Notes under the pieces: model-generated
What the model was told of the DNA's origin: nothing
The model's database searches: none
Seen by the model: only the letters and a program-made list of their open reading frames with translations
Shown: positions 29,806-58,733 of the stretch, in pieces
Numbering within the stretch: position 1 is the stretch's first letter
How the letters are laid out: every line of letters begins with the position of its first letter
IMG/VR virus record: IMGVR_UViG_3300047274_000273
Location: 55,217-119,216 of that record
Length of the DNA stretch: 64,000 bases
Strand: one strand, 5' to 3'
Source: a virus
Taxonomy: Duplodnaviria; Heunggongvirae; Uroviricota; Caudoviricetes
Position numbers and translations under genes: made by a program

Positions 29806-30216
29806 ATGAAAAAATTATTTTGGAACATCTTAGGATTTTTAAGTCTAGGTCTAGCCTATATAGGTTTGATCACCCCGGGTATCCCATACAGTCCGTTTAT
29901 CGTATTCTCTGCTTACTGCTTCAGCAAAGGCAGCGAACGTATGCATCGATGGATCTATAATCACAAGATCTTTGGGCCTTTCCTCACTAACTGGAACGAA
30001 AAGCGTGTATTCCCAACCAAACTAAGATATCTGATGTTGTTTATGATGAGCCTAAGTTTGGTACTAATGTACACAGGGGGAGTCAAACCCATAGGTATCG
30101 CCAGCACTGCTGTATTCATGGCCTTGGTTGCAGTCTGGGCATGGAGATATCCTGCTACCCCCGAAGAGCATGACCAACGTAAACTAGAAGGCAAGAAAAT
30201 TGGCTGGTGGAAATGA
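29806..30216 (+). CDS. inner-membrane protein, YbaN/DUF454-like
   Basis: Two TM pairs and the GIPYSPF motif. Confidence 0.5.
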   Translation: MKKLFWNILGFLSLGLAYIGLITPGIPYSPFIVFSAYCFSKGSERMHRWIYNHKIFGPFLTNWNEKRVFPTKLRYLMLFMMSLSLVLMYTGGVKPIGIASTAVFMALVAVWAWRYPATPEEHDQRKLEGKKIGWWK

Positions 30217-30953
30217 ACCTAGGCTTCTACGGTCACAGTGCCTGTAGATCAAAAAAAGAAAACAGTCACACTAGTTTATTAGCTGATAGATTATCGGCCA
30301 ATATAGTCAATATTGGTGTATCACACGGCAGCGAAGAGCGTATACTCCACGAACTAAAAAAGACCAAAAAGATCGACTTTGCTGTCATATTCCATTCGTA
30401 TCCCTGGTACGTTTACATACTGGATGTAGATCGTGATATCGACATTACGAAAAATATAGAGGAAAAAGCCGAATATTTGTATCCAAGACATTATCGAGAT
30501 TTCGAGAATCCCGAACTCATAGATAAAGACAAACATCCAAAATTTTACAAAAAATATTCAACTGCTATTGAGTTCCAGAATGTAATACAAAACTATAAAC
30601 AAAATTTTTACGATCCAGACCTTTTCAAATATAGATTCGAAGGTGCTGTAATCTCTATAGATTATTATCTCAAATTTAAAAATCTTCCCTGTTATCATAT
30701 TGTCGATCCGGATAAAAATTTCCTACCTTCGTGGTATAAGATACAATCCGGCCCGGTTGACTACGAATTAATGACCTACATCAAATCCAAACAATCTCGG
30801 GGCCCTAATCTAATAAGCAAAGAAGCCAATCAATATGTAGCAGACTATCTTTATGATAAAATTGCGGCCAGTGGTAGAGTGGTGCATACGCCAAATGTCC
30901 AATTTGGAGACGGAGGTTCGAATCCCCCGGCCGCTCCAGCTAACAATGTTTGA
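30207..30953 (+). CDS. hypothetical protein (3' end overlaps a tRNA-Gly-like element)
   Basis: ORF only. Confidence 0.35.
   Translation: MEMNLGFYGHSACRSKKENSHTSLLADRLSANIVNIGVSHGSEERILHELKKTKKIDFAVIFHSYPWYVYILDVDRDIDITKNIEEKAEYLYPRHYRDFENPELIDKDKHPKFYKKYSTAIEFQNVIQNYKQNFYDPDLFKYRFEGAVISIDYYLKFKNLPCYHIVDPDKNFLPSWYKIQSGPVDYELMTYIKSKQSRGPNLISKEANQYVADYLYDKIAASGRVVHTPNVQFGDGGSNPPAAPANNV
30864..30938 (+). pseudogene. degenerate tRNA-Gly(UCC)-like element embedded in a CDS 3' end
   Basis: Canonical T-arm GGAGGTTCGAATCCCCC; acceptor GCGGCC/GGCCGC with discriminator U and CCA; perfect 5-bp anticodon stem around tgTCCaa. The 5' D-stem strand is missing, position 33 is G, and there are A-C mismatches. 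Confidence 0.4.
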
Positions 30954-31377
30954 ATATCTTGATCATTTGCCTAAAATACCCGAACATCTAATAGCGCAGG
31001 TCTATGAATGTTTAGAATCGGATAATCTTTTTTCGAATAAAAAAATACACGGCAAATATGGAACCTATGCTATCACTAACGATCTAGCAGATTGGTTGTC
31101 TACTTTCTTTTCTCGTGAATACATGTTTAAGGTACAGAGAGTGGAAAATGGACTACATGCACACATAGACAAATCTAGACTAGAAGCCTTCAATTATCTA
31201 ATCGATACGGGTGGCCCTGAAGCTGCTCTGTGTTACTATGACAATCTCGGAAATATCACAGCCCAATTTCAAATCGAAGCACACCGCTGGCACAGAATCG
31301 ATGTCACACATCTGCATACTGTAAAACATATCAAAACAACTAGGATAGCCATAACTGTATTCAAACCTCTTGACTAA
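30946..31377 (+). CDS. hypothetical protein
   Basis: ATGTTTGA overlap with the upstream stop. Confidence 0.35.
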   Translation: MFEYLDHLPKIPEHLIAQVYECLESDNLFSNKKIHGKYGTYAITNDLADWLSTFFSREYMFKVQRVENGLHAHIDKSRLEAFNYLIDTGGPEAALCYYDNLGNITAQFQIEAHRWHRIDVTHLHTVKHIKTTRIAITVFKPLD

Positions 31378-31613
31378 TTTCTAAAAAGATTGTATAGTTA
31401 TCTATATCACTTTTGGAAGGTAACCTATGGCCAAGATCTTTTTGACATTTTTTCTTTTAGTAGTAATCTTTTATTTTTCCATTAATGCCGTACGGACATT
31501 GAATAAAAAGGAAAAATGGGCATTGACCAAGACCGTAGGCTATGCTATACTATGCGCATCGCTGGCTGTTCTAGCGATGATTTCTATCGTAATTCTCTTT
31601 TAAGGACACAGAC

Positions 31614-32411
31614 ATGAAACGTATTTTCACTCTCTCTATTCTCGCCGCCGCCGTCCTGGCCACTGGCTGCACTCGTATCGAAACCGGTGAGGTCGGTGTT
31701 CGAGTTGGTTTCGACAAGCAGGTCAAGCCCGGCGAACTCTTGCCCGGCTCATTCAACCAAACTATCATCGGTGATGTGCTTACATTTCCGATCAAGGATG
31801 TTAATGTTGTTCTTGAGAACATGACTCCTGTGGCCAAAGACAACAGCACTATGAAAGACTTTGATGCTGTGGTAGTCTACAACATCAATCCACAGAGCGT
31901 AGCTGAACTCTACAGCACCAAGAACAAGGCATTCCACGCAGAGTTCAAAGGTGACACCTACGTGATGTATAACTATGTTGTACAGAATGCTCGTAACGCT
32001 ATCTACAAGGCAGCACGTAAGTATGAAGCCTTGGACATGGCAGACAATCGCGAGCCTATGGAAAAGTACATCCAGGAAGAAATCACTCGTAATCTTGCCG
32101 AAGAAAAACTAGACGGCACTATCATCATTAGCCAAGTTCTAATCCGTAATGTAGTGCCTGCTGATTCAGTTGTTGAATCCGCTAATGCTCTTGTTCGTGC
32201 CAAGAACGAATACAAGCAGAAGGAAGTCGAAGTGCAAACTGCCAAGAAAGAAGCAGAACGTATGGCCGCATTGGCTAACAATTCAGCAAGTTCTATCGCA
32301 TTCATGAACGCACAGGCCGCACTTAATATTTCCGAAGGTATTAAGAACGGTAAAGTCCAGACTATCGTTGTTCCTGCTAACTTTAATGCTTTGATGTTAC
32401 CTAAGCAGTAA
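31614..32411 (+). CDS. SPFH/Band-7 domain lipoprotein
   Basis: Lipobox LATGC; ETGEVGVRVGF...FDAVVVYNINP SPFH core; C-terminal coiled coil. Confidence 0.65.
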   Translation: MKRIFTLSILAAAVLATGCTRIETGEVGVRVGFDKQVKPGELLPGSFNQTIIGDVLTFPIKDVNVVLENMTPVAKDNSTMKDFDAVVVYNINPQSVAELYSTKNKAFHAEFKGDTYVMYNYVVQNARNAIYKAARKYEALDMADNREPMEKYIQEEITRNLAEEKLDGTIIISQVLIRNVVPADSVVESANALVRAKNEYKQKEVEVQTAKKEAERMAALANNSASSIAFMNAQAALNISEGIKNGKVQTIVVPANFNALMLPKQ

Positions 32412-32412
32412 T

Positions 32413-32604
32413 ATGGCTCTGAGAATGATCAAGAAACTTTTCAGACCTCATCCTAATAATAGATATCCCGTGACACGGGATCCCAAACGGAATCCTAGGT
32501 GCTATGAACTCACTGATAAAGAGCGTGAAGAAGCTATTCAACGAGTGGATCGAATCTTACGAGAACGAACTGCTGAACACGAACACGGATACTACGGAGC
32601 CTAA
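32413..32604 (+). CDS. small basic protein
   Basis: ORF only. Confidence 0.3.
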   Translation: MALRMIKKLFRPHPNNRYPVTRDPKRNPRCYELTDKEREEAIQRVDRILRERTAEHEHGYYGA

Positions 32605-32720
32605 ATGACCAGGATTAGGATAGCCCTCGCTCGCTGGATTTTGGGTCGCCATTGTCCCTGCTACAAGATGGGCTATCATAATCTCTGCGATTTTCGTAAT
32701 CATAAGATCGGAAACAAAAA

Positions 32721-33065
32721 ATGAGTTTTCTAAGTTTTTTAGGATTTGGTAAAATGGTCAAAGATGGTGCAGAAGTTTTAGAGTTTCCAAAACCCAAGGC
32801 AGTTCCTAAGATGCCCGAAGTTCCACCACCTCCACCAAAAGAAGAGCCTGCTAAAATCTTTTATCGACTAGGAATAACCGATAACAACCGTGTTGCTTTT
32901 AGTATGGGCTACAGTGAAATACTAATGAATAAAGCGGGTTGTCAGCAAATGATTGATCAGATCGCCTTCTTTCAAAGTCAGTTACATGACGAAGGCGGCC
33001 CCTCTGATGATCCCGATGGTGGTTTGCCATTACCGGAAGAAGTTGAACAAGCAAAGGCAGCATGA
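32721..33065 (+). CDS. hypothetical Pro-rich protein
   Basis: ORF only. Confidence 0.35.
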   Translation: MSFLSFLGFGKMVKDGAEVLEFPKPKAVPKMPEVPPPPPKEEPAKIFYRLGITDNNRVAFSMGYSEILMNKAGCQQMIDQIAFFQSQLHDEGGPSDDPDGGLPLPEEVEQAKAA

Positions 33066-33736
33066 TGGGATCTATACTCAGTGACATCTTCGAAAGGATC
33101 GGAGATCTTGAAACGAAACCCCTACATAAGAATCACGGCAAGGCCGTAGATGTTGTAGAGTTTCCTTGTGTACATCGAGATGACAGCGAACCCCTGAGTA
33201 TAATTTGGCCTGATCTTAAACAAGGTCCTTGGCTCGCTGGCGGCGCCTGCCTGCGTTGGTATCAAGGACAGCCTGTGGGAGAAAATGACATTGATATATT
33301 CTGCTCCAGTGCAGAACAGGCACAGAACATCATCGATGATATCAAGAGCTATGGTAGATATTCTATAAAGTATGAAAGCGAAAATGCTACGACGTTGAGT
33401 TACTACAGTAAAGATTCTAATAAGACTTGGACATTACAGATCATCAAGCGTAGATATTTTACCAGCCTAAAAGACATCATCGATAACTTTGATATCTCTG
33501 TCTGCCAAATCGGAACTGCGGGCAATGATTGGTTATTAGGAAAGAATACCGCTCGCGATATTCGTGAGAGAAATCTGCGTATGAACATGCCTTTGCAGCC
33601 TGATGCTGTGAAAAGATTAGCGAAATACTGGACTTATGGTTATCGTCCAGTAGACGGGCTGTTAGATGCTGTTAGGGTGAATCCCATAGGAAAGAAAATG
33701 TTCCAAAGTAACGAGGACTATGAAAATGCGTTCTGA
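33062..33736 (+). CDS. nucleotidyltransferase with CCA-adding/poly(A)-polymerase-type head motif
   Basis: WLAGGACLRWYQGQPVGENDIDIF matches the GGxxR...G...DxDh head motif of class II tRNA nucleotidyltransferases and PAP. Confidence 0.45.
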   Translation: MMGSILSDIFERIGDLETKPLHKNHGKAVDVVEFPCVHRDDSEPLSIIWPDLKQGPWLAGGACLRWYQGQPVGENDIDIFCSSAEQAQNIIDDIKSYGRYSIKYESENATTLSYYSKDSNKTWTLQIIKRRYFTSLKDIIDNFDISVCQIGTAGNDWLLGKNTARDIRERNLRMNMPLQPDAVKRLAKYWTYGYRPVDGLLDAVRVNPIGKKMFQSNEDYENAF

Positions 33737-34115
33737 ACAATCATGGAGCCTTCTAGATCCGAAACCAGTGATGCTGTATCTTTCCAATCTAGATGAATAC
33801 ATCGTATATTGGAACGGTATCGCCACTACACATCTAATGGCTTTAAATTTAGCCATGGAGTATTATGGTATCTTTCCTACCCCTGAAATGAAATCAGCTA
33901 TGGAGCAAAACTACAGCAAGATTTACTATGCGAATGGTTTCAATACAAGAGCATGGGATCTTAAAGTATCCAGTTCGCCAATTTATCCCTATGTGAAAAG
34001 GCTGTTGGCAGAACACTGTAAAAAAGTGATTGACGAATCGGGTCGAGATATTTCTGAAGTTTTAGGCTGGTTCGATTACAGTCGAGCAAGAAAAGAACAA
34101 TGCGCTGATAGCTAA
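33720..34115 (+). CDS. hypothetical protein (3' end overlaps the tRNA by 14 nt)
   Basis: ORF only. Confidence 0.35.
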   Translation: MKMRSEQSWSLLDPKPVMLYLSNLDEYIVYWNGIATTHLMALNLAMEYYGIFPTPEMKSAMEQNYSKIYYANGFNTRAWDLKVSSSPIYPYVKRLLAEHCKKVIDESGRDISEVLGWFDYSRARKEQCADS

Positions 34116-34177
34116 ATGGAACAGCAGGAGCCTCTAAAACTCCAGATGCGTGGGTTCGATTCCCACTCAGCGCACCA
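34102..34177 (+). tRNA. tRNA with anticodon CUA (candidate amber suppressor), CCA encoded
   Basis: 76 nt. 7-bp acceptor stem GCGCUGA/UCAGCGC; U8; A14, G18, G19, A21; anticodon loop cuCUAaa with U33 and A37; T-arm GTGGG-TTCGATT-CCCAC; discriminator A; 3' CCA. One mismatch each in the D and anticodon stems; 6-nt variable loop. Confidence 0.6.
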
Positions 34178-34298
34178 GAGCAGCGAGACTATCACAACCT
34201 CAGTATGAGTCGCTAAGGTAGGCGCCTAATCCTTAGGGCAAGCAACAGTACGAAATTGTGAGTGGCACCTCGGAACTAGACGGGGCATAGGATTTAAA

Positions 34299-34550
34299 AT
34301 GGCAGCATTAATGTTTAAAACTAAAGAAGAAGCGCAGGCCTGGATCCGTTCAATTATGGGTCCTCCTAAGCGTATTCTCCATGGCGAAGAACACGATCGG
34401 GTTTGGTTGATGTTGCAGATGACAGAACCTGTTAGAGAAACTAACAATCAGCATAGTTGGTGTGCTGAATACAACGTTGGCGGAATTATGTATGATGTAC
34501 ATTATTTCCCAAACGAAGAACCTTTTATTGAGCAGTATCTAAATGATTGA
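34299..34550 (+). CDS. hypothetical protein
   Basis: ORF only. Confidence 0.35.
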   Translation: MAALMFKTKEEAQAWIRSIMGPPKRILHGEEHDRVWLMLQMTEPVRETNNQHSWCAEYNVGGIMYDVHYFPNEEPFIEQYLND

Positions 34551-34848
34551 TTATCACGAAGCACTTAAAGAAATGCATCAGGGCAAAGTAGTCAAATATG
34601 TTGGCACTGTGAATGGCAATGTAATGACTAACAAAGGTGCTAGTTTCTGTATGTGTCGCGGGTGTATCTTTCTTTTTGATAGTGGTGTAATCAAATGGAA
34701 CAAATTAGGCTATATGGTCTATGACCCAGACTTTCGTTATGAGCCAACAGGCGAAACAGTTGACCCTAGGGCTTGGAAACCAGAAAAGAAAAGTAAAGAA
34801 ATCAAATCAAAGTTAGGATACAGTCGTATTGGATTAAGCAATGTATAA
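34543..34848 (+). CDS. hypothetical protein
   Basis: ORF only. Confidence 0.35.
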   Translation: MIDYHEALKEMHQGKVVKYVGTVNGNVMTNKGASFCMCRGCIFLFDSGVIKWNKLGYMVYDPDFRYEPTGETVDPRAWKPEKKSKEIKSKLGYSRIGLSNV

Positions 34849-35026
34849 CGAACATTTTAAAAATCAAATAGAGCAAGGTGCTAGAGAAATGTTTTTCTAC
34901 GCACTTGAAAATGCAGATCAATCTAGGGTAGAAATAAAAAGTCACAAAGGTACAATTGATACTTTTCCTGAACTAGAATACATCCGCCATTTAAGCGATG
35001 GCGTTCCTTTATTCAAGAATAAATAG
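34841..35026 (+). CDS. hypothetical protein
   Basis: ORF only. Confidence 0.3.
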   Translation: MYNEHFKNQIEQGAREMFFYALENADQSRVEIKSHKGTIDTFPELEYIRHLSDGVPLFKNK

Positions 35027-35104
35027 AATTTGTAGGGTGGTCCTACAAACCAACACTCTTTAAACACTAGGTACTTAGAGTGTGTACCGTAACAAGGAGA
35101 AATC

Positions 35105-35839
35105 ATGATGTATGAATCAAAGCTCGCCGCGGCAATCAAAGTAGACGGTAAAGTCCTAAGAGAATTCAAGGACACAGTACATATCCCATTTGGCAGTGAA
35201 TATACAATCCTACTTAAGAACCTTAATACGACCCGTGCTGTCGTTAATGTTTTTATCGATGGTAACGATATGGTCCCTGGTGGACTTGTACTGGATCCTG
35301 GCAGAGAAGTCGACCTCGAACGATCGGTCAAGAACGGCAATCTCACAGAAGGCAATCGATTCAAGTTTATCGAACGCACAGGGAGTGTGGAAAAGCACAG
35401 GGGAATCGGTATTGAGGACGGACTGGTAAGAATCGAGTTCCAGTTCGAACAACCACCACGTCCTATCCTTTGGAATACTTCTAATATCAACAGTATCTAT
35501 CCGCAGGGCGGAATCCTTCGCGGTGTGAACGATGTTCATTACGGTGTGACTTGTTCTACAGCCAGCTATGATGCTACTTCTGTGAACAGCAGCCACTCGT
35601 TGTTAAACGATGTTGGTATCACTGTTCCCGGTAGTCACAGCACACAGAAGTTTTCAACTGCCTATGTTGGCGTACTAGAAAGTGTCAAACACTCAATGGT
35701 GTTCAAACTTTTCGGTGGTACTATGCCAAAACCGATTACAGTTAAGCACAAACCAAAATGTGTGACCTGCGGCAAGCAGAACAAAGCTACCAGCAAGTTT
35801 TGCCAAGAGTGCGGTACTGCTCTTGAAATATTCGCATAA
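35105..35839 (+). CDS. hypothetical protein with C-terminal zinc-ribbon
   Basis: SD aaggag; C-terminal CVTCG...CQECG double Cys pair. Confidence 0.4.
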   Translation: MMYESKLAAAIKVDGKVLREFKDTVHIPFGSEYTILLKNLNTTRAVVNVFIDGNDMVPGGLVLDPGREVDLERSVKNGNLTEGNRFKFIERTGSVEKHRGIGIEDGLVRIEFQFEQPPRPILWNTSNINSIYPQGGILRGVNDVHYGVTCSTASYDATSVNSSHSLLNDVGITVPGSHSTQKFSTAYVGVLESVKHSMVFKLFGGTMPKPITVKHKPKCVTCGKQNKATSKFCQECGTALEIFA

Positions 35840-36030
35840 GTAGTATATAATGAAAAGCATACGACACGGCACAGCAGCAGCCAACTCAAAGTTGCGTGGT
35901 CGTAAGACCGCGATGCTAACCTGCCGTTGTTGTATGCTGATTAATTTCAAACACGAAGAACGTGTAAAAGAAGCCAAAACTGACATAAGGAGATATCAAA
36001 ATGGCCTAGATTGAATATGCTTGTAAGGAC

Positions 36031-36561
36031 GTGGTGTTCCATTTCAACAAAAAACACCTAGAGGACCAAACCATACCTATGTGGGTCCTAAAAACACATG
36101 GGGAATCATTTTACGTCAATCACGTGACCTGCGAGATACCTTGGACTACCAAGGAAACGCCAGACAACTCGCATACCAAAGGCAGTATCAAAGTCAAAGA
36201 TTGTCTATTGACAATTGACGAAGAAAACTCTGCTACTATCAGTAATCTTTCAGTATTTGATAAAATCCGCTTACGCAACCAAAAGTTGGGTATCACTAGG
36301 ATAATCTTCTCTTGGGGATCCAAGATGCATACAGCTCTAGCCGGAAACGAGTTCAAACACAGTCCTTTCAAGAATGTTGAAGGAGGCTGTGGAACTAGTT
36401 TCGTTATCTGCGATCTACTAAAGAAAGAAGAAGCTACATTAGCAGCGTTGAAATATCCAAACTGTTGGCGTGTTCTCAAACCAAATGAGGCCTACTATCA
36501 GCGATACGATCAGAAAGGCACGATTTGGGAAGATGAAGATCTTGACGAGGATGACGAATGA
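36031..36561 (+). CDS. hypothetical protein
   Basis: ORF only. Confidence 0.35.
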   Translation: MVFHFNKKHLEDQTIPMWVLKTHGESFYVNHVTCEIPWTTKETPDNSHTKGSIKVKDCLLTIDEENSATISNLSVFDKIRLRNQKLGITRIIFSWGSKMHTALAGNEFKHSPFKNVEGGCGTSFVICDLLKKEEATLAALKYPNCWRVLKPNEAYYQRYDQKGTIWEDEDLDEDDE

Positions 36562-36587
36562 GTGTTAAATAACTGTATTGCTGTATG

Positions 36588-36899
36588 AAGCAAAGAGAAA
36601 AGTGTTCTGGACGCGGGTTCGATTCCCGCCCGGTCCACCAGAAAGAATTCTTCACCCTGTATAGAGACAGACAAGTGCTATAGACTATACTAAAGAGTTC
36701 TTTCTAATGGGCCGGACCTGGTTTCGACAGGGCAAAGAGTAACAGAGTGGACAGCAGGGTAGGCGATGACCCTAAATCAAGCAAAACTATAACTGCAAAC
36801 GCAGCTAATGACGAGGTTTACGCTCTAGCAGCCTAAACTTCCGGGGCAGGTATGCCTTGTAACCAAAAATACCAAAGCGGCTCTTGTGGCCGCTTTTTC
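36588..36899 (+). ncRNA. ssrA: two-piece (circularly permuted) tmRNA: acceptor piece upstream, coding piece with tag ORF downstream, intrinsic terminator
   Basis: 36607-36640 GGACGCGGGTTCGATTCCCGCCCGGTCCACCA is nearly identical to the E. coli tmRNA 3' end (T-arm, 3' acceptor, CCA). 36709 GGGCCGGACCTGGTTTCGACAGGG is the tmRNA 5' end-like, forming G3:U70 with the upstream acceptor strand. Tag reading frame 36795-36836 reads GCAAACGCAGCUAAUGACGAGGUUUACGCUCUAGCAGCCUAA (..ANDEVYALAA stop). Terminator at 36876-36899. Confidence 0.8.
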
Positions 36900-36927
36900 T
36901 TGACTTTTACTGATAGTTTGTTATATA
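36900..36927 (+). promoter_or_regulatory. sigma70-like promoter TTGACT-16-TATATA
   Basis: Sits directly after the tmRNA terminator in a 200-nt AT-rich region upstream of ahpC. Confidence 0.45.
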
Positions 36928-37020
36928 CTTGTCCTAGATAAAGGTTATTTTTGTACGACCGTTATTAATTTTTTATATTATCCTCATTGAAAAATACAAT
37001 AAAAAATCTATTAAAATTAG

Positions 37021-37106: not shown

Positions 37107-37658
37107 ATGAAAACAGTTGGTAATAAATTAGAAAAATTTGCAGTAACAGGAGTTAACCCAGGTAAGGATGATTTCTTTACTATCGATGAAAATAGTTTTT
37201 CAGGCAAGTGGAAGGTAATCGTTTACTATCCTAAGGACTTTACATTTGTTTGTCCCACAGAAATCGTTGCCTATGACAAATTGTTTCAAGACTTTGCTGA
37301 TCGTGACGCAGTATTGCTCACTGGTAGCACAGACAACGAATTCTGCAAACTAGCATGGCAGGCCGCACACGAAGATCTCAAGAAAATCAAGCACATCCAA
37401 TTTGCCGATACACAGCGTTGGAATGATGAGACTATGGAAGATTTAAGCCTAATTAATCAGTTAGGTGTGTTCTATGCTCCAGCAGGTGCCGCACTCCGTG
37501 CGACATTCATCGTCGATCCGGATAATGTTATCCAACACGTCACTGTCAACAACTTGAATGTTGGTCGCTCACCAGAAGAAACACTTCGTGTTCTTGATGC
37601 ATTACAGACTGGCGAACTTTGTGCTTGTAACCGCACAGTAGGCGGAGAAACACTATAA
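37107..37658 (+). CDS. ahpC: peroxiredoxin AhpC (typical 2-Cys, mycobacterial type)
   Basis: FTFVCPTEI peroxidatic Cys motif; C-terminal ELCACN; close alignment to actinobacterial-type AhpC. Confidence 0.85.
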   Translation: MKTVGNKLEKFAVTGVNPGKDDFFTIDENSFSGKWKVIVYYPKDFTFVCPTEIVAYDKLFQDFADRDAVLLTGSTDNEFCKLAWQAAHEDLKKIKHIQFADTQRWNDETMEDLSLINQLGVFYAPAGAALRATFIVDPDNVIQHVTVNNLNVGRSPEETLRVLDALQTGELCACNRTVGGETL

Positions 37659-38164
37659 TGGCATTCATTGACGCAATTAAAACTGCGTTGCCAGAATACG
37701 CAAAGGACACCAAGTTAAACTTGGACGCTGTCCTTTTGCGTTCAACATTAGATGCTGATGTGGCTATGGGATGTGCTGTGGCCGCCTTGGCCGCAACTGG
37801 TAACGGTAAGGTACTTGCTGTTATGCTGGCCGATGCACCTGTTCACGCAGAGTCGGCGATGACTGCTGCCAGCATCATGGCACAGAACAACGTTTGGTAC
37901 CCATATGTTGAAATGGCAGACGATGAAAGCCTAAAAGGATTGCCAGCACAGTTACGCATGAACGCTATTGCAAGTCATGGCGGAACTACAAAGGCAAACT
38001 TTGAAGCGTTTAGTCTTGCCGCAAGCATTGTGGGCAAATGTCATTTCTGTGTTAAGGCACACTACGACACATTGAAGAAGGAAGGCTACACAGTAGAACA
38101 ACTTCGTGACATTGGACGTATCGCCGCAGTAATGAACTCAGTGGCAAAGGTATTGAACTCTTAA
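37658..38164 (+). CDS. ahpD: alkylhydroperoxidase AhpD (CMD family)
   Basis: ALPEYAKDTKLNL N-terminus; GKCHFCVKAH (CxxCxxxH) catalytic motif; overall alignment to M. tuberculosis AhpD. TAATG overlap with ahpC. Confidence 0.75.
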   Translation: MAFIDAIKTALPEYAKDTKLNLDAVLLRSTLDADVAMGCAVAALAATGNGKVLAVMLADAPVHAESAMTAASIMAQNNVWYPYVEMADDESLKGLPAQLRMNAIASHGGTTKANFEAFSLAASIVGKCHFCVKAHYDTLKKEGYTVEQLRDIGRIAAVMNSVAKVLNS

Positions 38165-44813: not shown

Positions 44814-45053
44814 ATGAAAAAACTCTACGAAGACAGAAAAGGTACAGGTGTTACTGTAAAAGAACACGAGAATATCAATCAAGCTCTACGCCGTTTTAAG
44901 AAGAAAGTAGAAGAGTCTGGCACACTAGAAGCTCTTAGAAAAAAAGAGTTTTATGAAAAGCCTACGACTGTAAAAAAGAGAAAAGCGGGTGCTGCTAAGG
45001 CTCGTTGGCAAAAGAAACTCAGAGATCAACAACTACCTCCCAAACTATTCTAA
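44814..45053 (+). CDS. rpsU: ribosomal protein bS21
   Basis: ALRRFKKKVEESGTLEALRKKEFYEKPTTVKKRK aligns with bacterial S21 (ALRRFKR...EFYEKPT..RKR). Confidence 0.85.
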   Translation: MKKLYEDRKGTGVTVKEHENINQALRRFKKKVEESGTLEALRKKEFYEKPTTVKKRKAGAAKARWQKKLRDQQLPPKLF

Positions 45054-45065
45054 GAAAGGTATTCT

Positions 45066-46100
45066 ATGCGTATCGAAGACGAAGTCAAGCTAGACTTCCG
45101 TGATGTGCTGATCCGTCCTAAGCGTTCTACGCTGTCAAGTCGCAAAGAAGTAGATCTCAATCGTACTTATAAGTTTAAGCATAGCGGTGCAGAATGGACC
45201 GGTGTTCCAATCATGGCCTCTAACATGGATGGAGTTGGTACACTTTCCATGGCATCAACTTTATACGATCATCGTATGTTTACCTGTTTGGTCAAATCAT
45301 ATGAGGAAGACGATCTCTTCGAAATCACAGGAAAGATTGGTGGAAATTATTTTGCGGTCAGTACCGGCACCAGCGAAAATGATTTTAGAAGATTAAGTCG
45401 GATCATCAATTCTTACCCCGAAATCCATTTTATCTGCATCGATGTGGCCAACGGGTATTCGGAAAGATTCGGAGATTATGTAGCGGATGTTAGAGATGCA
45501 TTTCCGCATTGTACAATTATCGCTGGTAACGTTGTTACCGCAGACATGACACAGGAGTTAATTTTACGTGGCGCGGACATTATTAAAGTGGGTATTGGCC
45601 CTGGTAGCGTTTGTACTACTCGTATCCAAACTGGTGTGGGCTACCCACAGCTTAGTGCTATTATTGAGTGTGCCGATGCCGCTCATGGTCTTGGCGCTCA
45701 TATTATTGCTGATGGTGGATGTGTTTGCCCTGGTGATGTTGCTAAGGCTTTCGGCGCTGGTGCGGACTTTGTGATGCTGGGCGGTATGCTGGCCGGACAT
45801 GATGAAGGTGGTGGTACCATTGTTTCTGAAGACGGATACAATCCTAGGGTAATCTTCTATGGAATGAGTTCAGATACCGCTATGAACAAACATCATGGTG
45901 GTGTCGCGGAATATCGATCATCTGAAGGTAGGACAGTAGAAGTAAAATACAAGGGTTCAGTTAATGGCACAGTGTTAGATCTCCTGGGAGGTTTGAGATC
46001 TGCATGTACCTATGTCGGAGCTCCGACTCTAAAGCAGCTATCTAAGTGTACTACATTTATTAGAGTGAATAGACAAATCAACGATGTGTTTTTAAAATAA
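45066..46100 (+). CDS. guaC: GMP reductase
   Basis: [23 protein letters not shown]...[11 protein letters not shown]...GGMLAG...[12 protein letters not shown]. Near co-linear with E. coli GuaC. Confidence 0.9.
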
Positions 46101-46723
46101 TGCTTGACTTTTATAACAAAAAACAATATAATAATACTATGAACACTGACGTAATGATTGATTTAGAAACACTAGATGTACGACCCTCAGCAACAGTATT
46201 GACTATCGGCGCTGTAAAATTTGATCCTTTTGGTTCTGATATTGAAGAACCCTCAATGGAAAAATTTTATGTTAGAGTCGATGTTGATAGCTGTGATCGA
46301 CTAGGCTGCACAGTTAGCCAATCTACTCTAGATTGGTGGGCCGGCCAAGATAAGGCTGCACAGGACGAAGCATTTGATCCTAATGGTAGGATTGACATTG
46401 TTGATGCAATGAATCAACTTTACAAATTCTGCTGGGGAGCCAAGCGTGTATGGAGTCATGGCGCAGGTTTTGATATTATTATCTGCGAAACATTATTCCA
46501 TAAAATTGGAAAAGCAGTTCCTTGGAGTTTTTGGGAAGTACGAGATACACGTACTTTGTTTGATTTAGGTATCGACTCTCATCGTCCGCCTGTACTAAAG
46601 CATCATGCCCTAGAAGATGCTTGGAACCAGGCTGTGGGAGTTCAAAATGTTTTTAAAATTTTAAGGACATCGAGCTCTAGTCTTAACGGAAAATTGATTA
46701 TGCCCTTGGCTAATCAGAGATAA
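46100..46723 (+). CDS. DEDD-family 3'-5' exonuclease (DnaQ-like)
   Basis: IDLETLD (Exo I) and HGAGFD (Exo III-like). The start could be 46139. Confidence 0.5.
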   Translation: MLDFYNKKQYNNTMNTDVMIDLETLDVRPSATVLTIGAVKFDPFGSDIEEPSMEKFYVRVDVDSCDRLGCTVSQSTLDWWAGQDKAAQDEAFDPNGRIDIVDAMNQLYKFCWGAKRVWSHGAGFDIIICETLFHKIGKAVPWSFWEVRDTRTLFDLGIDSHRPPVLKHHALEDAWNQAVGVQNVFKILRTSSSSLNGKLIMPLANQR

Positions 46724-46755
46724 ATAAAATTTATAAACTGTACCAATATGTGGGC

Positions 46756-46801
46756 AGTTTATAGGGCATAGTGCCCAAATAGATCTTACTTTACAAGGAG
46801 A
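46756..46801 (+). promoter_or_regulatory. conserved heat-shock-type promoter/leader cassette upstream of dnaK
   Basis: AGTTTA-N11-GCCCAAAT-N4-CTTACTTTACAAGGAGA; the same cassette precedes hsp20. Confidence 0.45.
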
Positions 46802-46805
46802 TATT

Positions 46806-48695
46806 ATGTCTAAGATCATCGGTATTGACCTCGGCACCACCAACTCATGCGTGGCTATCGTCGAGAACGGAACTTCCAAAGTTATTGAAAATTCAGAAGG
46901 TGCAAGAACTACACCTAGTATCGTTGCCTATGCTAATGATGAAATCCTCGTAGGCGCATCAGCCAAGCGTCAAGCAGTAACTAATCCTAAAAATACAATC
47001 TATGCGGCCAAGCGACTAATTGGTCGTAAGTTCAAAGAACAGGCTGTACAAAAAGATATCGATCTCATGCCATATGAAATCATGGAAGCCAAGAATGGCG
47101 ATGCATGGGTTAGAGCACAGGGCAAAGAACTAGCCCCTCCACAGATTTCCGCAGAAGTCCTTCGCAAGATGAAGAAGACCGCAGAAGATTATCTTGGTAC
47201 TACAGTTACTCAAGCAGTCATTACTGTTCCTGCGTACTTTAATGATCAACAACGTCAGGCGACCAAAGATGCAGGACAGATCGCAGGATTAGAAGTACTG
47301 CGTATCATCAACGAGCCAACCGCGGCCGCTCTAGCTTACGGTGTTGATAAGGAATCAAAAGGCGATCGCAAGATCGCAGTCTATGACCTAGGTGGTGGTA
47401 CATTTGACGTTTCGATTATTGAAATCGCGAATGTTGATGGTGATAAGCAAATCGAAGTATTGTCTACAAACGGTGACACTTTCCTGGGCGGTGAAGACTT
47501 TGACCAACGTATCATGGACTACTTGGTCGACGAATTCCGTAAAGAGCAGGGAGTGGATCTAACCAAGGACATGTTAGCTTTACAACGACTCAAAGATGCT
47601 GCTGAAAAAGCTAAGATTGAATTATCTAGCAGCACACAAACAGAAGTTAATCTTCCATATATCACAGCAGATGCCAACGGTCCTAAGCACTTAGTAGTCA
47701 AGTTGTCCAAAGCTAAACTAGAAAGCCTAGTTGACGATCTAATCCAACGCTCATTAGAGCCTTGCCGCATCGCTATGAAAGATGCAGGTGTTACTGCCGC
47801 TGACATCGACGAAGTTATTCTTGTTGGCGGTCAGACACGTATGCCTAAGGTACAAGAAGAAGTTGAGAAGTTATTTGGTAAAGCACCACGTAAAGATGTG
47901 AATCCAGACGAAGCAGTGGCTGCGGGCGCTGCTATCCAAGGTGCTGTTCTTGGCGGTGACCGCAATGATGTTCTATTACTAGATGTTACACCATTGAGCC
48001 TAGGTATTGAAACACTGGGCGGTGTAATGGCTAAGATCATCCAGAAGAATACAACTATTCCTACTAAGGGACAACAAACATTTTCTACAGCAGAAGATAA
48101 TCAACCTGCGGTAACTATCAAGGTTTTCCAGGGTGAACGTGAACTCTGTCAGCACAATAAGCTCTTGGGCGAATTTAATCTAGAAGGCATCGCTCCGGCA
48201 CGTCGCGGCCAGCCTCAGATCGAGGTTGCTTTTGATATCGATGCCAATGGTATCATGAATATCAGTGCCAAGGACAAGAGCACAGGTAAAGAAAATAAGA
48301 TCACTATCAAGAGCGACAGCGGTCTGAGCAAAGAACAGATCGAGCAGATGATTCGCGATGCTGAAGCTAATGCAGAAGCAGATAAGAAATCCAGAGAGCT
48401 TATTGAAGCTAAAAATCAAGCAGAGTCTACAGTTCACGAAGTGAAGCGTGATATGGAAGAACTCAAGGATGATCTCAGTGATGCCGAAAAGGCTGAAATT
48501 GAATCTGCGATCGCAGCCGTTCAAGAAGCAGCCAAGACAGACGACACAGACAAGATCAAATCCGAGCTTGAAAAAGTTTATCCGGCAATGAAAACATTGT
48601 TGGAAAAAAAGCAGGCCAAAGAGCAATCACAGGCTCAACCTGCTGGTACAGATGATAATGTAGTCGATGCTACCTTTACGGAGAAAAAAGACTAA
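46806..48695 (+). CDS. dnaK: chaperone DnaK (Hsp70)
   Basis: [21 protein letters not shown], full-length 629 aa with C-terminal lid. Confidence 0.95.
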
Positions 48696-48701
48696 TTATC
48701 A

Positions 48702-48750
48702 TGTTTAGGGGTACCTACGGGGCCCTAATTGTTCTTACTTTATAAGGAGA
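48702..48750 (+). promoter_or_regulatory. conserved heat-shock-type promoter/leader cassette upstream of hsp20
   Basis: TGTTTA-N14-GCCCTAAT-N4-CTTACTTTATAAGGAGA. Confidence 0.45.
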
Positions 48751-48755
48751 CTATT

Positions 48756-49190
48756 ATGAACAATCAACTCGCAAGACTAGATGCTCTGAACAGAGCTCTT
48801 ATTGGTTTCGACACCATGTTCGACCAAATGGAACGCCGTTTCGCTAACAGCGTTAATAATAACTATCCCCCACACAACATCCTACGTTTGGCTGACAATG
48901 AATATGCCATTCAACTGGCTGTCACGGGCTTTGATAAAAGCGAAATTTCAGTGACTATTGAAAACAACGTTCTAGTTGTCAAGGGTGAAAGCATGACCAC
49001 TGATTATGCTGCTGAACAATATCTACACCGTGGACTAGCTACCCGAGACTTTGTCAAGGAATTTTCTCTTGCAGAGCACATCGAAGTAGCAGGCGCAGAA
49101 ACTAAGAACGGTATGCTAACCATTAAGTTGATTAGAAACATTCCAGAATCTGCCAAACCGCGTGTCGTTGATATCGTAGAGGTTAAGTAA
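48756..49190 (+). CDS. small heat-shock protein (Hsp20/IbpA family)
   Basis: Alpha-crystallin domain (YAIQLAVTGFDKSEISV...LLVVKGE). Start moved to 48756 to sit behind the SD. Confidence 0.8.
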   Translation: MNNQLARLDALNRALIGFDTMFDQMERRFANSVNNNYPPHNILRLADNEYAIQLAVTGFDKSEISVTIENNVLVVKGESMTTDYAAEQYLHRGLATRDFVKEFSLAEHIEVAGAETKNGMLTIKLIRNIPESAKPRVVDIVEVK

Positions 49191-49194
49191 ATAT

Positions 49195-49216
49195 ATATGG
49201 GGGCAAAGCCCCCATA
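49195..49216 (+). terminator. GC-rich hairpin between hsp20 and clpS (possible attenuator or weak terminator)
   Basis: atgggggc-aaa-gcccccat, but with a poor U-tract. Confidence 0.35.
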
Positions 49217-49233
49217 TCATCGAAGGAGAACTT

Positions 49234-49536
49234 ATGAGCACTGAAATCCAATTTGATGAAAAGGTAAAGGTTGGTCTTCAACCGCCTAAGATGTGGAAGG
49301 TCATTTTTCTTAATGACGATCACACTCCCATGGAATTTGTCATGGAATTGCTAACTTCTATTTTCAGACACAGTGAAGAAGAAGCTAGGACGATAACTCT
49401 AGAAATCCACAATTCGGGCAGCGCAGTTGTTGGAGTTTATACTCACGAGATTGCTGAGCAGCGAGGTCTTGAATCTACACAATTAGCTAGAAGTAATGGA
49501 TTTCCGTTGAGAATCACTCTTGAACAAGAGCAATGA
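49234..49536 (+). CDS. clpS: ATP-dependent Clp protease adaptor ClpS
   Basis: PKMWKVIFLNDDHTPMEFVMELL...AEQ aligns with ClpS (P.MYKV.L.NDD.TPM.FV). Confidence 0.85.
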   Translation: MSTEIQFDEKVKVGLQPPKMWKVIFLNDDHTPMEFVMELLTSIFRHSEEEARTITLEIHNSGSAVVGVYTHEIAEQRGLESTQLARSNGFPLRITLEQEQ

Positions 49537-49793
49537 CCTTTGACGATGTAAAACTTATTAAACATCAAAGCACAGGCGCAAGAAAATTTGGTTACTGGGT
49601 TCATTTTAGAGACCAACGCCCGCATCATCTATCTGTGGGTGTAGCCGGAAAAAAATCAATCAGAAAATTTTTAGAGACAAGCCTTGGTCCTATGGGACAA
49701 AAATGGCAGTATGAAAAGTTCAATCAATTTGATTATTTTATCAAATTAGACAACGAAAAAGATCTCTTATTTCTCATCCTCAAGTTTAAGTGA
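49533..49793 (+). CDS. hypothetical protein
   Basis: ATGA overlap with the upstream gene. Confidence 0.35.
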   Translation: MTFDDVKLIKHQSTGARKFGYWVHFRDQRPHHLSVGVAGKKSIRKFLETSLGPMGQKWQYEKFNQFDYFIKLDNEKDLLFLILKFK

Positions 49794-49809
49794 TAGTAAA
49801 TAACTCACT

Positions 49810-54149: not shown

Positions 54150-54176
54150 CAATAACAGTACCACGGAGCGAAGAAA

Positions 54177-57858: not shown

Positions 57859-57974
57859 TCCTCTAACTAAATAGCTGTGTTTTTTTAAGGACAAGCTATG
57901 ATTTTAGAAATAATGATGTGGGGATTTTTCTCTGCGTGGGGCTGGTTTGGTGCTAGTTATATCAAAGATAAAGT

Positions 57975-58283: not shown

Positions 58284-58301
58284 TGTTTTAAGGAGTGAGC
58301 C

Positions 58302-58598: not shown

Positions 58599-58733
58599 AA
58601 AGAAATTTCTTATGTAGGTGTAGTCTTGTCTTGTTGTATTGAACAGCAATAACGACTAATGCATCTAATCAAGGTAGTGTTTTTGCTACCAATAGTGCCA
58701 TACCTGCCCACTATGCATTTAGTTAAATATAAA

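What the first reader, a model, noticed from the sequence alone, without database searches (positions are those of the whole stretch)
36588..36899. Circularly permuted (two-piece) tmRNA gene carried by the phage
The 3' tRNA-like half (T-arm GCGGGTTCGATTCCCGC, acceptor strand, CCA; almost identical to the E. coli tmRNA 3' end) lies upstream of the 5' half. The 5' half carries GGGCCGG-ACCUGGUUUCGACAGGG, a tag reading frame encoding ...ANDEVYALAA-stop, and an intrinsic terminator. The two acceptor strands pair with a G3:U70 wobble, the AlaRS identity element. This is the permuted gene arrangement known from alphaproteobacteria and marine picocyanobacteria, so it points to the host lineage. A phage-encoded tmRNA implies manipulation of ribosome rescue and tagging. 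It sits in the same window as phage ClpP, ClpS, DnaK, Hsp20 and S21. It is also a classic integration-site sequence.
Basis: seen in the sequence. Interest (0 to 1): 0.75.

Follow-up and report, generated by a model that had tools for sequence, protein, structure and literature searches.

The report
Phage-encoded two-piece (permuted) tmRNA gene
An aquatic T4-like phage carries its own complete, split-and-swapped tmRNA gene (the RNA that rescues stalled ribosomes and marks unfinished proteins for destruction); it is real and looks functional, but such genes are already documented in this group of phages.

Summary
ARAGORN calls a permuted tmRNA with tag ANAANDEVYALAA. Rfam RF04321 scores 138 bits (threshold 47) and RF01850 scores 134 bits (threshold 84).

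The gene has a sigma-70-like promoter, a roughly 62-nt acceptor piece ending in CCA, a 68-nt intervening hairpin, a roughly 190-nt coding piece and a terminator.

Across 22 phage homologues, 92% of cells in the proposed pairs form standard base pairs, against 41-49% in slid controls. 37 of 53 pairs show changes on both sides. Among 138 unique genes, 137 keep G3:U70. The gene is therefore under selection.

The genome resembles Methylophilales phage Melnitz and Pelagibacter phage HTVC008M, including the same curli module order as Melnitz. Permuted tmRNAs were already reported for that group, so this is a new member of a known kind.

tmRNA type does not reliably indicate the host. Melnitz carries an alpha type. 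Stenotrophomonas and Xanthomonas phages carry the beta type.

Side observation: in many relatives, but not in this window, the discarded intervening segment carries a small ORF with a ribosome-binding site. I found no published description of this.

The parts
36542..36570 (+). Sigma-70-like promoter: TTGACG (36542-36547), 17-nt spacer, TTAAAT (36565-36570). The -35 box lies inside the end of the upstream ORF, whose stop codon is at 36559-36561.
   Evidence: Read from the sequence. It aligns to the UUGAag...UAuAAU block at the start of the RF01850 model. A TTGAC box sits at this fixed distance in 40 of 134 family members, against 3.6% in shuffles, and 38 of those have a -10-like hexamer 16-18 nt downstream. 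The consensus scanner did not list it because the -10 has T at position 2. Promoter function is inferred.
36579..36640 (+). Acceptor piece (about 62 nt; the 5' end is uncertain by a few nt). It contains inter-piece helix strands 36579-36583 and 36603-36609, T-arm 36613-36629, acceptor 3' strand 36630-36636, discriminator A 36637 and CCA 36638-36640.
   Evidence: RF04321 and RF01850 alignments; helix coordinates; covariation.
36641..36708 (+). Intervening segment, 68 nt. It is a hairpin whose basal stem (36641-36647 with 36698-36704) extends the acceptor stem. It has no ORF and is predicted to be excised and discarded.
   Evidence: The minimum-free-energy fold shows the hairpin; the whole precursor has z = -3.97 against shuffles. 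All 7 basal pairs covary among relatives and 92.9% of cells are paired. No ORF found. It is 100% identical to the segment of the otherwise unrelated contig L005.
36709..36898 (+). Coding piece (about 190 nt). It contains the 5' acceptor strand GGGCCGG (36709-36715), partner strands of the inter-piece helices (36728-36734 and 36752-36756), pseudoknot 1 (36757-36782), the tag frame, a second pseudoknot-like element (36845-36873) and the terminator hairpin.
   Evidence: RF01850 alignment over model positions 1-331; coordinates; covariation per helix.
36795..36836 (+). Tag reading frame: resume codon GCA (36795-36797), 13 codons encoding ANAANDEVYALAA, then stop TAA (36834-36836).
   Evidence: ARAGORN and the sequence. 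The same tag occurs in L004, L013, L022, L196 and L105. 71 of 91 unique tags in the family end in LAA.
36874..36899 (+). Intrinsic terminator: stem AGCGGC (36876-36881) with GCCGCT (36889-36894), followed by a T-run.
   Evidence: Sequence. It aligns to the terminal hairpin of RF01850. All 6 pairs covary among relatives. The scanner lists the same hairpin only on the minus strand. On the plus strand the T-run follows directly if the A-T base pairs are left out of the stem; this is my reading of the sequence.

Best explanation
This is a functional, phage-encoded, two-piece tmRNA (ssrA) gene of the betaproteobacterial structural type. It is carried by a Melnitz/pelagimyophage-like aquatic T4-like myophage.

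Proposed mechanism:
1. A precursor of about 320 nt is transcribed from the gene's own sigma-70-like promoter and ends at the intrinsic terminator.
2. Host RNase P cuts between U36708 and G36709, making the 5' end of the coding piece.
3. Host tRNA 3'-end enzymes trim back to CCA36640, and the 68-nt intervening hairpin is lost.
4. The acceptor piece (about 62 nt) and the coding piece (about 190 nt) stay together through the 7-bp acceptor stem and two long-range helices.
5. Host AlaRS charges the RNA through G3:U70 and discriminator A.
6. Host SmpB and EF-Tu bring it to ribosomes stalled on broken mRNAs.
7. Translation resumes at GCA36795 and appends (A)ANAANDEVYALAA. Its C-terminal LAA and AANDxxY motifs are the known ClpX and SspB determinants.

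Likely benefit to the phage: it keeps ribosomes recycling and clears truncated proteins while host transcription is shut down and mRNAs are being degraded. It would act together with the phage's own ClpP, ClpS, DnaK, Hsp20 and S21.

Shown here: the gene's identity, its completeness, the structural and tag constraints, and its conservation in a phage family. Inferred: transcription, processing, charging, dependence on host SmpB, and the physiological benefit.
For: - Detection: ARAGORN calls a permuted tmRNA. RF04321 scores 138 bits and RF01850 scores 134 bits over the full model.
- Fold: the precursor shows the T-arm, acceptor stem and intervening hairpin, with z = -3.97 against shuffles.
- Covariation in 22 phage homologues: 92.2% of cells are paired against 41-49% in slid controls. 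37 of 53 pairs change on both sides. This includes both inter-piece helices, pseudoknot 1 and the intervening basal stem.
- Functional determinants in 138 unique genes: G3:U70 in 137, discriminator A in 138, encoded CCA in 134. 71 of 91 unique tags end in LAA.
- Conserved position: the order ribonucleotide reductase, small ORFs, tmRNA, AhpC recurs in 10 or more related viral contigs at 70-80% nucleotide identity.
- The genome is a phage. It has a virion protein, phrog_1645, at E = 8.5e-108. CsgG homologues among cultured phages occur only in HTVC008M and the Melnitz phages. The curli module order matches Melnitz.
- A promoter box sits at a fixed position in 40 of 134 relatives.
- Proteostasis genes lie in the same window.
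Against: - No expression, processing or charging data exist.
- No SmpB gene was found in the window or in 1.7 Mb of tmRNA-flanking phage DNA, using a single-bait tblastn of limited sensitivity. Function therefore depends on compatibility with an unknown host's SmpB and AlaRS.
- The RNA is divergent from bacterial members. It scores 134 bits, against 299 bits for a bacterial-like beta tmRNA, L090.
- One middle helix of the Rfam model is non-canonical in this sequence (marked 'v').
- The promoter's -10 hexamer is weak (TTAAAT).
Confidence: 0.85

Rival explanations
1. It is a modulator or decoy of host trans-translation. The phage RNA would mainly compete with host tmRNA for SmpB, AlaRS or stalled ribosomes, or re-tag proteins with a phage-specific degron. 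Its role would be to redirect or damp host quality control rather than to support it.
For: A tRNA-like-domain-only tmRNA from mycobacteriophage DS6A is reported to inhibit host tmRNA (PMC4131195; PMC11915505). No phage SmpB was found. The RNA is divergent from bacterial beta tmRNAs, 134 against 299 bits. Tags vary widely among relatives, including 26-31-residue tags. The phage encodes ClpS, which in E. coli is known to inhibit ClpAP degradation of SsrA-tagged proteins (established knowledge, not tested here).
Against: The complete tag frame, resume-codon context and pseudoknot 1 are conserved, and 71 of 91 tags keep the canonical LAA degron. A pure decoy would not need these. The window's tag matches the E. 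coli AANDENYALAA tag at 10 of 11 positions (the E. coli tag is from my own knowledge).
Confidence: 0.07
2. It is a non-functional passenger: a tmRNA gene captured from a bacterium and carried along or decaying.
For: tmRNA genes are frequent phage integration sites, so capture is plausible (PMC9004378). The Rfam score is moderate.
Against: Compensatory changes maintain every variable helix across a diverse phage family. Identity determinants are almost invariant in 138 genes. The position is conserved in relatives. The exact 3' half is absent from 185,579 bacterial species genomes but present in 83 viral or metagenome contigs. That pattern indicates long residence in phages under selection.
Confidence: 0.03
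3. It is an attachment-site (attP) sequence, or a host tmRNA at a prophage border. On this reading the window would be, or would include, bacterial DNA.
For: tmRNA genes are classic integration targets (PMC4383910, abstract listed). A few high-GC loci in the viral collection (L090, L100, L170) look like host tmRNAs at prophage ends.
Against: The gene is full length with its own promoter and terminator. Both flanks are phage DNA syntenic with many viral contigs. 82 of 95 ORFs are on one strand and GC is 42%. Virion genes and a Melnitz-like module are present. No integrase was detected by tblastn baits, which is a weak test.
Confidence: 0.02

Closest known systems
ssrA of Methylophilales phage Melnitz and related pelagimyophage-like contigs (Buchholz et al. 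2022, PMC9004378)
   Same: Both are permuted two-piece tmRNA genes on aquatic T4-like myophages. The genomes share Hsp20, ribonucleotide reductase and the module CsgF, CsgG, curlin repeat, FecR, adenylate cyclase. Both tags end in YALAA. 17 of 47 Melnitz-like contigs were already reported to carry permuted tmRNAs.
   Different: Melnitz's tmRNA is alpha type (RF01849, 106.7 bits) and is followed by a glutamine riboswitch (RF01739). The window's is beta type with no riboswitch. It also sits at a different genomic position, before AhpC and AhpD and after an inserted block downstream of the ribonucleotide reductase genes. The sequences are not alignable by blastn.
tmRNAs of Stenotrophomonas phages (Menderavirus: Marzo, Moby, Mendera, IME-SM1 and others) and Xanthomonas phages X1 and BUDD
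   Same: The Stenotrophomonas genes are beta-type permuted: Marzo scores 94.6 bits with RF01850 and 119 bits with RF04321. X1 is called permuted by ARAGORN and RF04321 (76.6 bits) but does not reach the RF01850 threshold. In Marzo and X1 the gene lies close to the ribonucleotide reductase gene. These phages are also the closest cultured matches for the window's reductase, at 54-61% amino-acid identity. Mendera and Moby are listed as 'Permuted' in Buchholz Table S1.
   Different: Only the 3' half of the tRNA-like domain is alignable, at 80-85% identity over about 65 nt. The acceptor stem differs (CATCTCC/GGGGATG) and so do the tags (VAANDDSYTVRIAA, VAANDADYSVARYA). In Marzo the gene is embedded in a tRNA cluster rather than having its own promoter. 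It is unannotated in X1.
Betaproteobacterial two-piece tmRNA (Rfam RF01850; Sharkady and Williams 2004, cited in PMC9004378; I could not read the paper itself)
   Same: The secondary-structure plan is the same and matches the full length of the model, including the promoter block, both pieces, pseudoknot 1, the post-tag element and the terminal hairpin. The tag is of the AND..ALAA kind.
   Different: The score is less than half that of a bacterial-like member (134 against 299 bits for L090). The intervening segment is 68 nt, against 25-31 nt in bacterial-like loci L090 and L100. The acceptor stem differs (CCGGTCC against the consensus CAccUCC). One middle helix is non-canonical. The gene resides in a phage.
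Caulobacter crescentus two-piece tmRNA (Keiler, Shapiro and Williams 2000; cited in PMC9004378)
   Same: This is the experimentally shown precedent that a permuted gene yields two base-paired RNAs that function in tagging. The statement comes from the literature as quoted.
   Different: It is alpha type, chromosomal and bacterial. No experiment exists for the window's RNA.
One-piece phage tmRNAs (mycobacteriophage Bxz1 group, Bacillus phage G) and the tRNA-like-domain-only RNA of phage DS6A (PMC4131195)
   Same: These are phage-borne ssrA genes.
   Different: They have the standard, non-permuted gene order or lack a tag. Their hosts are Gram-positive or actinobacterial.

Membership tests
tmRNA, permuted (two-piece) gene form (Rfam RF04321) | Covariance-model score at or above the curated threshold | tested here: met
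   138.1 bits against a gathering score of 47, E = 5.4e-27, model positions 1-213 of 213. ARAGORN also calls a permuted tmRNA.
tmRNA, permuted (two-piece) gene form (Rfam RF04321) | The 3' half of the tRNA-like domain (T-arm, acceptor 3' strand, discriminator, CCA) lies upstream of the 5' acceptor strand on the same DNA strand | tested here: met
   The 3' half is at 36613-36640 and the 5' strand at 36709-36715, separated by 68 nt.
tmRNA, permuted (two-piece) gene form (Rfam RF04321) | A 7-bp acceptor stem with the G3:U70 alanine identity pair and discriminator A | tested here: met
   GGGCCGG pairs with CCGGTCC with G3:U70. G3:U70 is invariant in 22 of 22 aligned homologues and present in 137 of 138 unique genes; discriminator A is present in 138 of 138.
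tmRNA, permuted (two-piece) gene form (Rfam RF04321) | A tag reading frame that starts at an alanine resume codon, ends in a stop codon and encodes a hydrophobic C-terminal degron | tested here: met
   GCA at 36795 through TAA at 36834-36836, encoding ANAANDEVYALAA.
tmRNA, permuted (two-piece) gene form (Rfam RF04321) | Inter-piece helices and pseudoknot 1 maintained by compensatory change | tested here: met
   Helix 1: 4 of 5 pairs change on both sides. Helix 2: 4 of 7. Pseudoknot 1 stems: 3 of 4 each. Overall 92.2% of cells are paired, against 41-49% in slid controls.
tmRNA, permuted (two-piece) gene form (Rfam RF04321) | The precursor is processed into two RNAs, alanylated, and acts with SmpB in trans-translation | not testable with these tools
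   This needs RNA-seq or Northern blots, charging assays and tagging assays. No SmpB gene was found in the window by tblastn with an E. coli bait.
Betaproteobacterial-type two-piece tmRNA (Rfam RF01850) | Score at or above threshold over the full model, and the best-scoring family in the clan | tested here: met
   134.1 bits against 84, E = 1e-40, model positions 1-331 of 331. It is the only clan CL00001 family reported at this place.
Betaproteobacterial-type two-piece tmRNA (Rfam RF01850) | Score and sequence typical of bacterial members | tested here: not met
   A bacterial-like locus (L090, 62% GC) scores 298.7 bits. The window's exact 32-nt 3' half is absent from 185,579 bacterial species genomes. 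It works like a beta tmRNA but belongs to a divergent, phage-borne branch.
   One search lists no such match and reports no suppressed lower-scoring clan matches for the window. As a positive control, the same search calls RF01849 for Melnitz.
Melnitz-type ssrA plus glutamine riboswitch unit | A glutamine riboswitch (RF01739) at the 3' end of ssrA | tested here: not met
   There is no RF01739 match anywhere in the window at the gathering threshold. It is present in Melnitz at 52.8 bits.
attP-type tmRNA fragment of temperate phages | Only a 3' fragment of the host tmRNA, lying next to an integrase gene | tested here: not met
   The gene is full length. No integrase was detected by tblastn with lambda Int and XerC baits in the window or in 1.7 Mb of related loci; these are weak, memory-typed baits.

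The most novel reading that the evidence does not exclude
The gene belongs to a phage-propagated branch of beta-type permuted tmRNAs in which the excised intervening segment serves as an exchangeable cargo slot.

- In 36 of 62 relatives with a segment of 83 nt or more, the segment is almost filled by a small ORF. 30 of the 36 have a Shine-Dalgarno motif. The ORF starts 10-16 nt after the CCA and its stop codon lies 1 or 12-13 nt before the 5' end of the coding piece. 22 of 36 encode a membrane-helix-like peptide. If so, the tmRNA precursor would double as an mRNA.
- The window carries the 'empty' hairpin form. That segment is 100% identical to the one in an unrelated 31%-GC phage, while the mature-RNA parts match a syntenic relative. 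This implies that the slot is swapped by recombination.
Probability: 0.5. Interest if true: 0.6.

Novelty: new member of a known kind. Interest (0 to 1): 0.38.

Why it matters
- It adds a well-anatomised example to the known but experimentally untouched class of phage-borne two-piece tmRNAs.
- Closely related aquatic myophages carry different permuted tmRNA lineages: alpha in Melnitz, beta here. tmRNA type should therefore not be used alone to predict hosts.
- The gene sits in a genome that also encodes ClpP, ClpS, DnaK, Hsp20 and S21. That makes this phage family a good system for asking whether phages rebuild translation quality control during infection.
- The side observation could matter more. 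If small genes in the excised spacer are confirmed, they would be a new way of packing a protein gene inside a structural RNA gene.

Tried and rejected
- Megablast of 22 kb around the gene against GenBank phages found nothing. The window has no close sequenced relative there.
- My second bacterial-genome scan used a mis-specified pattern, with 8 N instead of 7 between GGTTCGATTCC and TCCACC. As a result I could not retrieve bacterial beta-type tmRNAs for a direct phylogeny, and the nearest bacterial relative and the host remain undetermined.
- A viral scan with the exact 5' half returned only loci I already had.
- The Sharkady and Williams 2004 paper is not held in the library.
- A DnaK search in the phage collection mostly returned host contamination or unannotated records. 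It only says that the window's DnaK is 64-69% identical to gammaproteobacterial-type DnaKs.
- The Comamonadaceae phage paper (P26059A/B) describes a siphovirus and a podovirus that are unrelated to this phage.
- Ralstonia phage RSP15, which has a related ribonucleotide reductase, has no tmRNA in the 22 kb around that gene.
- TAG recoding was considered because of the CUA-anticodon tRNA. It was rejected: coding density is 92.8% under the standard code and TAG ends 10 of 95 ORFs.
- The ORF in Melnitz's intervening segment reads through into the coding piece. It is ambiguous and was not counted.
- A promoter-like match inside the intervening segment (GAGACA, 16 nt, TATACT, 36664-36691) is at chance level for this AT-rich region: 7 sites found against 3.0 +/- 1.6 expected.

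Full report

Yes. The sequence at 36579-36898 contains, in this order:
- a T-arm (GCGGG/TTCGATT/CCCGC, 36613-36629);
- an acceptor 3' strand (CCGGTCC, 36630-36636), discriminator A and an encoded CCA (36637-36640);
- a 68-nt spacer;
- the 5' acceptor strand GGGCCGG (36709-36715), followed by ACCTGGTTTCGACAGGG.

The two acceptor strands form seven standard pairs with G3:U70. ARAGORN reports a permuted tmRNA with tag ANAANDEVYALAA. Rfam reports RF04321 tmRNA_permuted at 138.1 bits (threshold 47, E = 5e-27). It also reports RF01850 beta_tmRNA at 134.1 bits (threshold 84, E = 1e-40) over the full model.

Identity to the E. coli ssrA 3' end is 87.5% over 32 nt.

**2. Anatomy**

- **Promoter.** TTGACG (36542-36547), a 17-nt spacer, then TTAAAT (36565-36570). 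It overlaps the end of the upstream ORF and aligns to the promoter-like block at the start of the RF01850 model. A TTGAC box at the same distance occurs in 40 of 134 family members, against 3.6% in shuffles. 38 of those have a -10-like hexamer at the right spacing.
- **Acceptor piece.** About 36579-36640.
- **Intervening segment.** 36641-36708. It folds into a hairpin whose basal stem stacks on the acceptor stem.
- **Coding piece.** 36709 to about 36898. It carries the partner strands of two long-range helices, pseudoknot 1 (36757-36782), the tag frame (36795-36836), a second pseudoknot-like element (36845-36873) and a terminator hairpin with a T-run (36874-36899).

**3. Is it under selection?**

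I aligned 22 distinct phage homologues and counted pairs for the structure defined on the window.
- 92.2% of cells are paired, against 41-49% when the partners are slid by 1-3 columns.
- 37 of 53 pairs show changes on both sides, and no shuffle out of 500 reached the observed values.
- Both inter-piece helices, pseudoknot 1, the basal stem of the intervening hairpin and the terminator all covary. The T-arm is invariant.

In a wider set of 138 unique genes, G3:U70 is present in 137, discriminator A in 138 and an encoded CCA in 134. 71 of 91 unique tags end in LAA. A decaying passenger or an attachment-site remnant would not show this pattern.

**4. Which kind of tmRNA, and does it point to the host?**

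Within the tRNA/tmRNA clan only the betaproteobacterial model reaches threshold in the window. As a positive control, the same search assigns the alpha model to phage Melnitz.

The RNA is a divergent member of the beta type. A bacterial-like locus (L090, 62% GC) scores 299 bits against the window's 134.

The exact 32-nt 3' half occurs in 27 viral contigs and 56 metagenome contigs, but in none of 185,579 species-representative bacterial genomes. All of these viral contigs carry permuted tmRNAs by ARAGORN or RF04321, and most reach the beta_tmRNA threshold.

Beta-type permuted tmRNAs also occur in cultured Stenotrophomonas phages. Xanthomonas phage X1 has a permuted tmRNA that matches RF04321 but not RF01850. 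To my knowledge the hosts of these phages have one-piece tmRNAs; I did not test that here. Melnitz carries an alpha type in a methylophilalean host (PMC9004378). tmRNA type is thus a poor host marker, and the host of this phage remains unknown.

My attempt to fetch bacterial beta tmRNAs failed because I mis-specified the pattern.

**5. What genome is this?**

It is a phage.
- GC is 42% and 82 of 95 ORFs lie on one strand.
- A virion structural protein matches phrog_1645 at E = 8.5e-108. Its closest cultured relative is the T4-like cyanophage S-RIM32, at 50% identity.
- The window encodes CsgF, CsgG, a curlin-repeat protein, a FecR-domain protein and a CHASE2 adenylate cyclase.
- Among cultured phages, CsgG homologues occur only in Pelagibacter phage HTVC008M and the four Melnitz isolates, plus a 1.5-kb unannotated fragment deposited as Salmonella phage S.Kent. 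Melnitz has the same module order.
- The ribonucleotide reductase is closest to those of Xanthomonas, Ralstonia and Stenotrophomonas phages.
- More than ten IMG/VR contigs are syntenic at 70-80% nucleotide identity, with the order reductase, small ORFs, tmRNA, AhpC.

Buchholz et al. found 53 ARAGORN-predicted two-piece tmRNAs among public phage genomes, 50 of them from marine or aquatic samples. They also report that 17 of 47 Melnitz-like contigs carry permuted tmRNAs. The finding is therefore a new member of a documented kind.

**6. How it most likely works**

The mechanism rests on established tmRNA biology and the anatomy above.
1. The precursor is transcribed from the gene's own promoter.
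2. RNase P cuts before G36709. The -1 base is U here and U or C in the aligned relatives.
3. The 3' end is trimmed to the encoded CCA and the spacer hairpin is lost.
4. The two pieces stay paired.
5. AlaRS charges the RNA through G3:U70.
6. Host SmpB and EF-Tu deliver it to stalled ribosomes.
7. The tag (A)ANAANDEVYALAA is added.

By established E. coli knowledge, LAA is the ClpX determinant and AANDxxY the SspB determinant. The window's tag differs from AANDENYALAA at one position.

No SmpB gene was detected, so dependence on host SmpB is inferred. The phage's ClpP, ClpS, DnaK, Hsp20 and S21 fit a general takeover of translation and proteostasis, but no link between them and the tmRNA has been shown. 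A decoy or modulator role is the main rival explanation.

**7. Things seen on the way**

- **Small ORFs in the intervening segment.** Among 157 permuted loci with 127 distinct intervening segments, the length distribution splits in two. Only 1 of 59 segments of 40-82 nt carries an ORF filling at least 79% of the segment. 36 of 62 segments of 83 nt or more do, against a shuffle mean of 0.96 (maximum 6) and none on the reverse complement.
  - 30 of the 36 have a Shine-Dalgarno-like motif.
  - The start lies 10-16 nt after the CCA in 33 of 36. The stop lies 1 or 12-13 nt before the 5' G of the coding piece.
  - 22 encode a stretch resembling a membrane helix.
  - Variable sites fall 56:31:82 over codon positions 1, 2 and 3, p about 1e-5.
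  - One 73-residue ORF matches phrog_419 (E = 1e-11) and Pfam PGDYG.
  - The window's own segment has no ORF.
  - The tmRNA database paper mentions a tRNA gene or a repeat element in intervening sequences, but no ORFs. My literature searches found no description.
- **Mosaic gene.** The window shares its intervening segment at 100% identity with L005, an unrelated contig whose sampled locus is 31% GC. It shares its mature-RNA parts at about 98-100% with its syntenic relative L004.
- **Inserted block.** Window 30217-36565 is inserted relative to the syntenic relatives and carries two tRNA genes.

**8. Verdict**

The finding is a new member of a known kind and of moderate-to-low interest as given. 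The intervening-segment ORFs in relatives are the lead most worth following.

Noticed in passing
Relatives L006, L007, L009, L010, L012-L018, L030, L042, L057, L059, L060, L082, L092, L103, L116, L122, L125, L130, L132, L135, L143, L145, L152, L153, L160, L171, L173, L176-L178, L182, L183, L190, L192, L195, L196, L198, L199, between the CCA and the 5' GGG of the tmRNA. The window's equivalent, 36641-36708, has no ORF.: The intervening segment of permuted phage tmRNA genes often carries a small ORF. This holds for 36 of 62 segments of 83 nt or more, against about 1 expected from shuffles and 0 on the reverse strand. 30 of 36 have a Shine-Dalgarno motif, and variation follows a codon-position pattern (56:31:82). 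22 of 36 are hydrophobic 23-37-residue peptides. One 73-residue ORF matches phrog_419 and Pfam PGDYG. I found no published description.
   Followed up: partly
window 36576-36849 compared with L005:488-762 and L004:13727-14049: The tmRNA gene is mosaic. The intervening segment is 100% identical to that of L005, a 156-kb contig whose sampled locus is 31% GC and has no other nucleotide similarity to the window. The mature-RNA parts are about 98-100% identical to the syntenic relative L004, whose intervening segment is unrelated. This suggests recombination within the gene between different phages.
   Followed up: partly
window 30217-36565: A block of about 6.3 kb is inserted here relative to the syntenic relatives (L004, L022, L023, L026, L015). 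In those, the DUF454 gene (homologue of 29806-30216) is followed directly by the tmRNA. The block carries tRNA-Gly(UCC), an SPFH/Band 7 protein, a nucleotidyltransferase-like ORF, a CUA-anticodon tRNA and a zinc-ribbon protein.
   Followed up: partly
window 34102-34177 (+): A tRNA with anticodon CUA, reading the amber stop codon. ARAGORN labels it 'Pyl', and Rfam's tRNA model scores it at 59 bits. TAG still ends 10 of 95 ORFs and coding density is 92.8% under the standard code, so there is no sign of genome-wide TAG recoding. Its role is unknown.
   Followed up: partly
window 52498-60788 (+): A curli-type module: CsgF, CsgG with a C-terminal SH3 domain, a curlin-repeat protein, a FecR-domain protein, an F5/8 type C-domain protein and a CHASE2 adenylate cyclase. 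The order matches phage Melnitz. Among cultured phages, CsgG homologues occur only in HTVC008M and the Melnitz isolates, plus one 1.5-kb unannotated fragment.
   Followed up: yes
window 44814-51040 (+) and 1-345 (+): A dense run of host-like translation, proteostasis and pigment genes: S21, an IMPDH/GMP-reductase family protein, an Rv2179c-like 3'-5' exoribonuclease, DnaK, Hsp20, ClpS, heme oxygenase and a ferredoxin-dependent bilin reductase. ClpP lies at the window start. A full-length DnaK is rare in cultured phages; most matches in the phage collection look like host contamination or huge uncultured phages.
   Followed up: partly
window 37107-38164 (+): An AhpC-type peroxiredoxin and an AhpD/CMD-family protein lie directly downstream of the tmRNA terminator, behind their own promoter-like site (TTGACT, 18 nt, TATACT, 36900-36929). 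The tmRNA-AhpC adjacency recurs in relatives L003, L004, L013, L014, L016, L017, L022 and L026.
   Followed up: partly
Relatives such as L015, L017, L023, L026, L057, L059, L082, L088, L093, L119, L130, L131, L133, L159, L177: Many phage beta-type tmRNAs encode unusually long tags of 26-31 residues. They share a conserved core, for example ANADTFDFSAMSFTGNTV...ALAA. This suggests a function beyond a simple degron.
   Followed up: no
L202 (Xanthomonas phage X1, OQ427096.1) 3966-4416: A permuted tmRNA with tag VAANDADYSVARYA lies about 2.6 kb upstream of the ribonucleotide reductase gene. It is not annotated in the GenBank record.
   Followed up: yes
L007:7618-7662, L012:12513-12557, L018:673-717, L025:3624-3668: A COG2908 RNA motif (Rfam RF02939, 60-72 bits) lies 0.5-2 kb from the tmRNA gene in several relatives. 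It is absent from the window.
   Followed up: no
L170 (JACZCU010099678.1), L123, L090, L100: Some permuted tmRNA genes have very short intervening segments of 5-31 nt. L090, L100 and L170 are high-GC (about 62%) and look like bacterial genes; L123 is 43% GC. L170 contains the window's exact 32-nt 3' half with only about 4 nt between the CCA and the 5' GGG.
   Followed up: no
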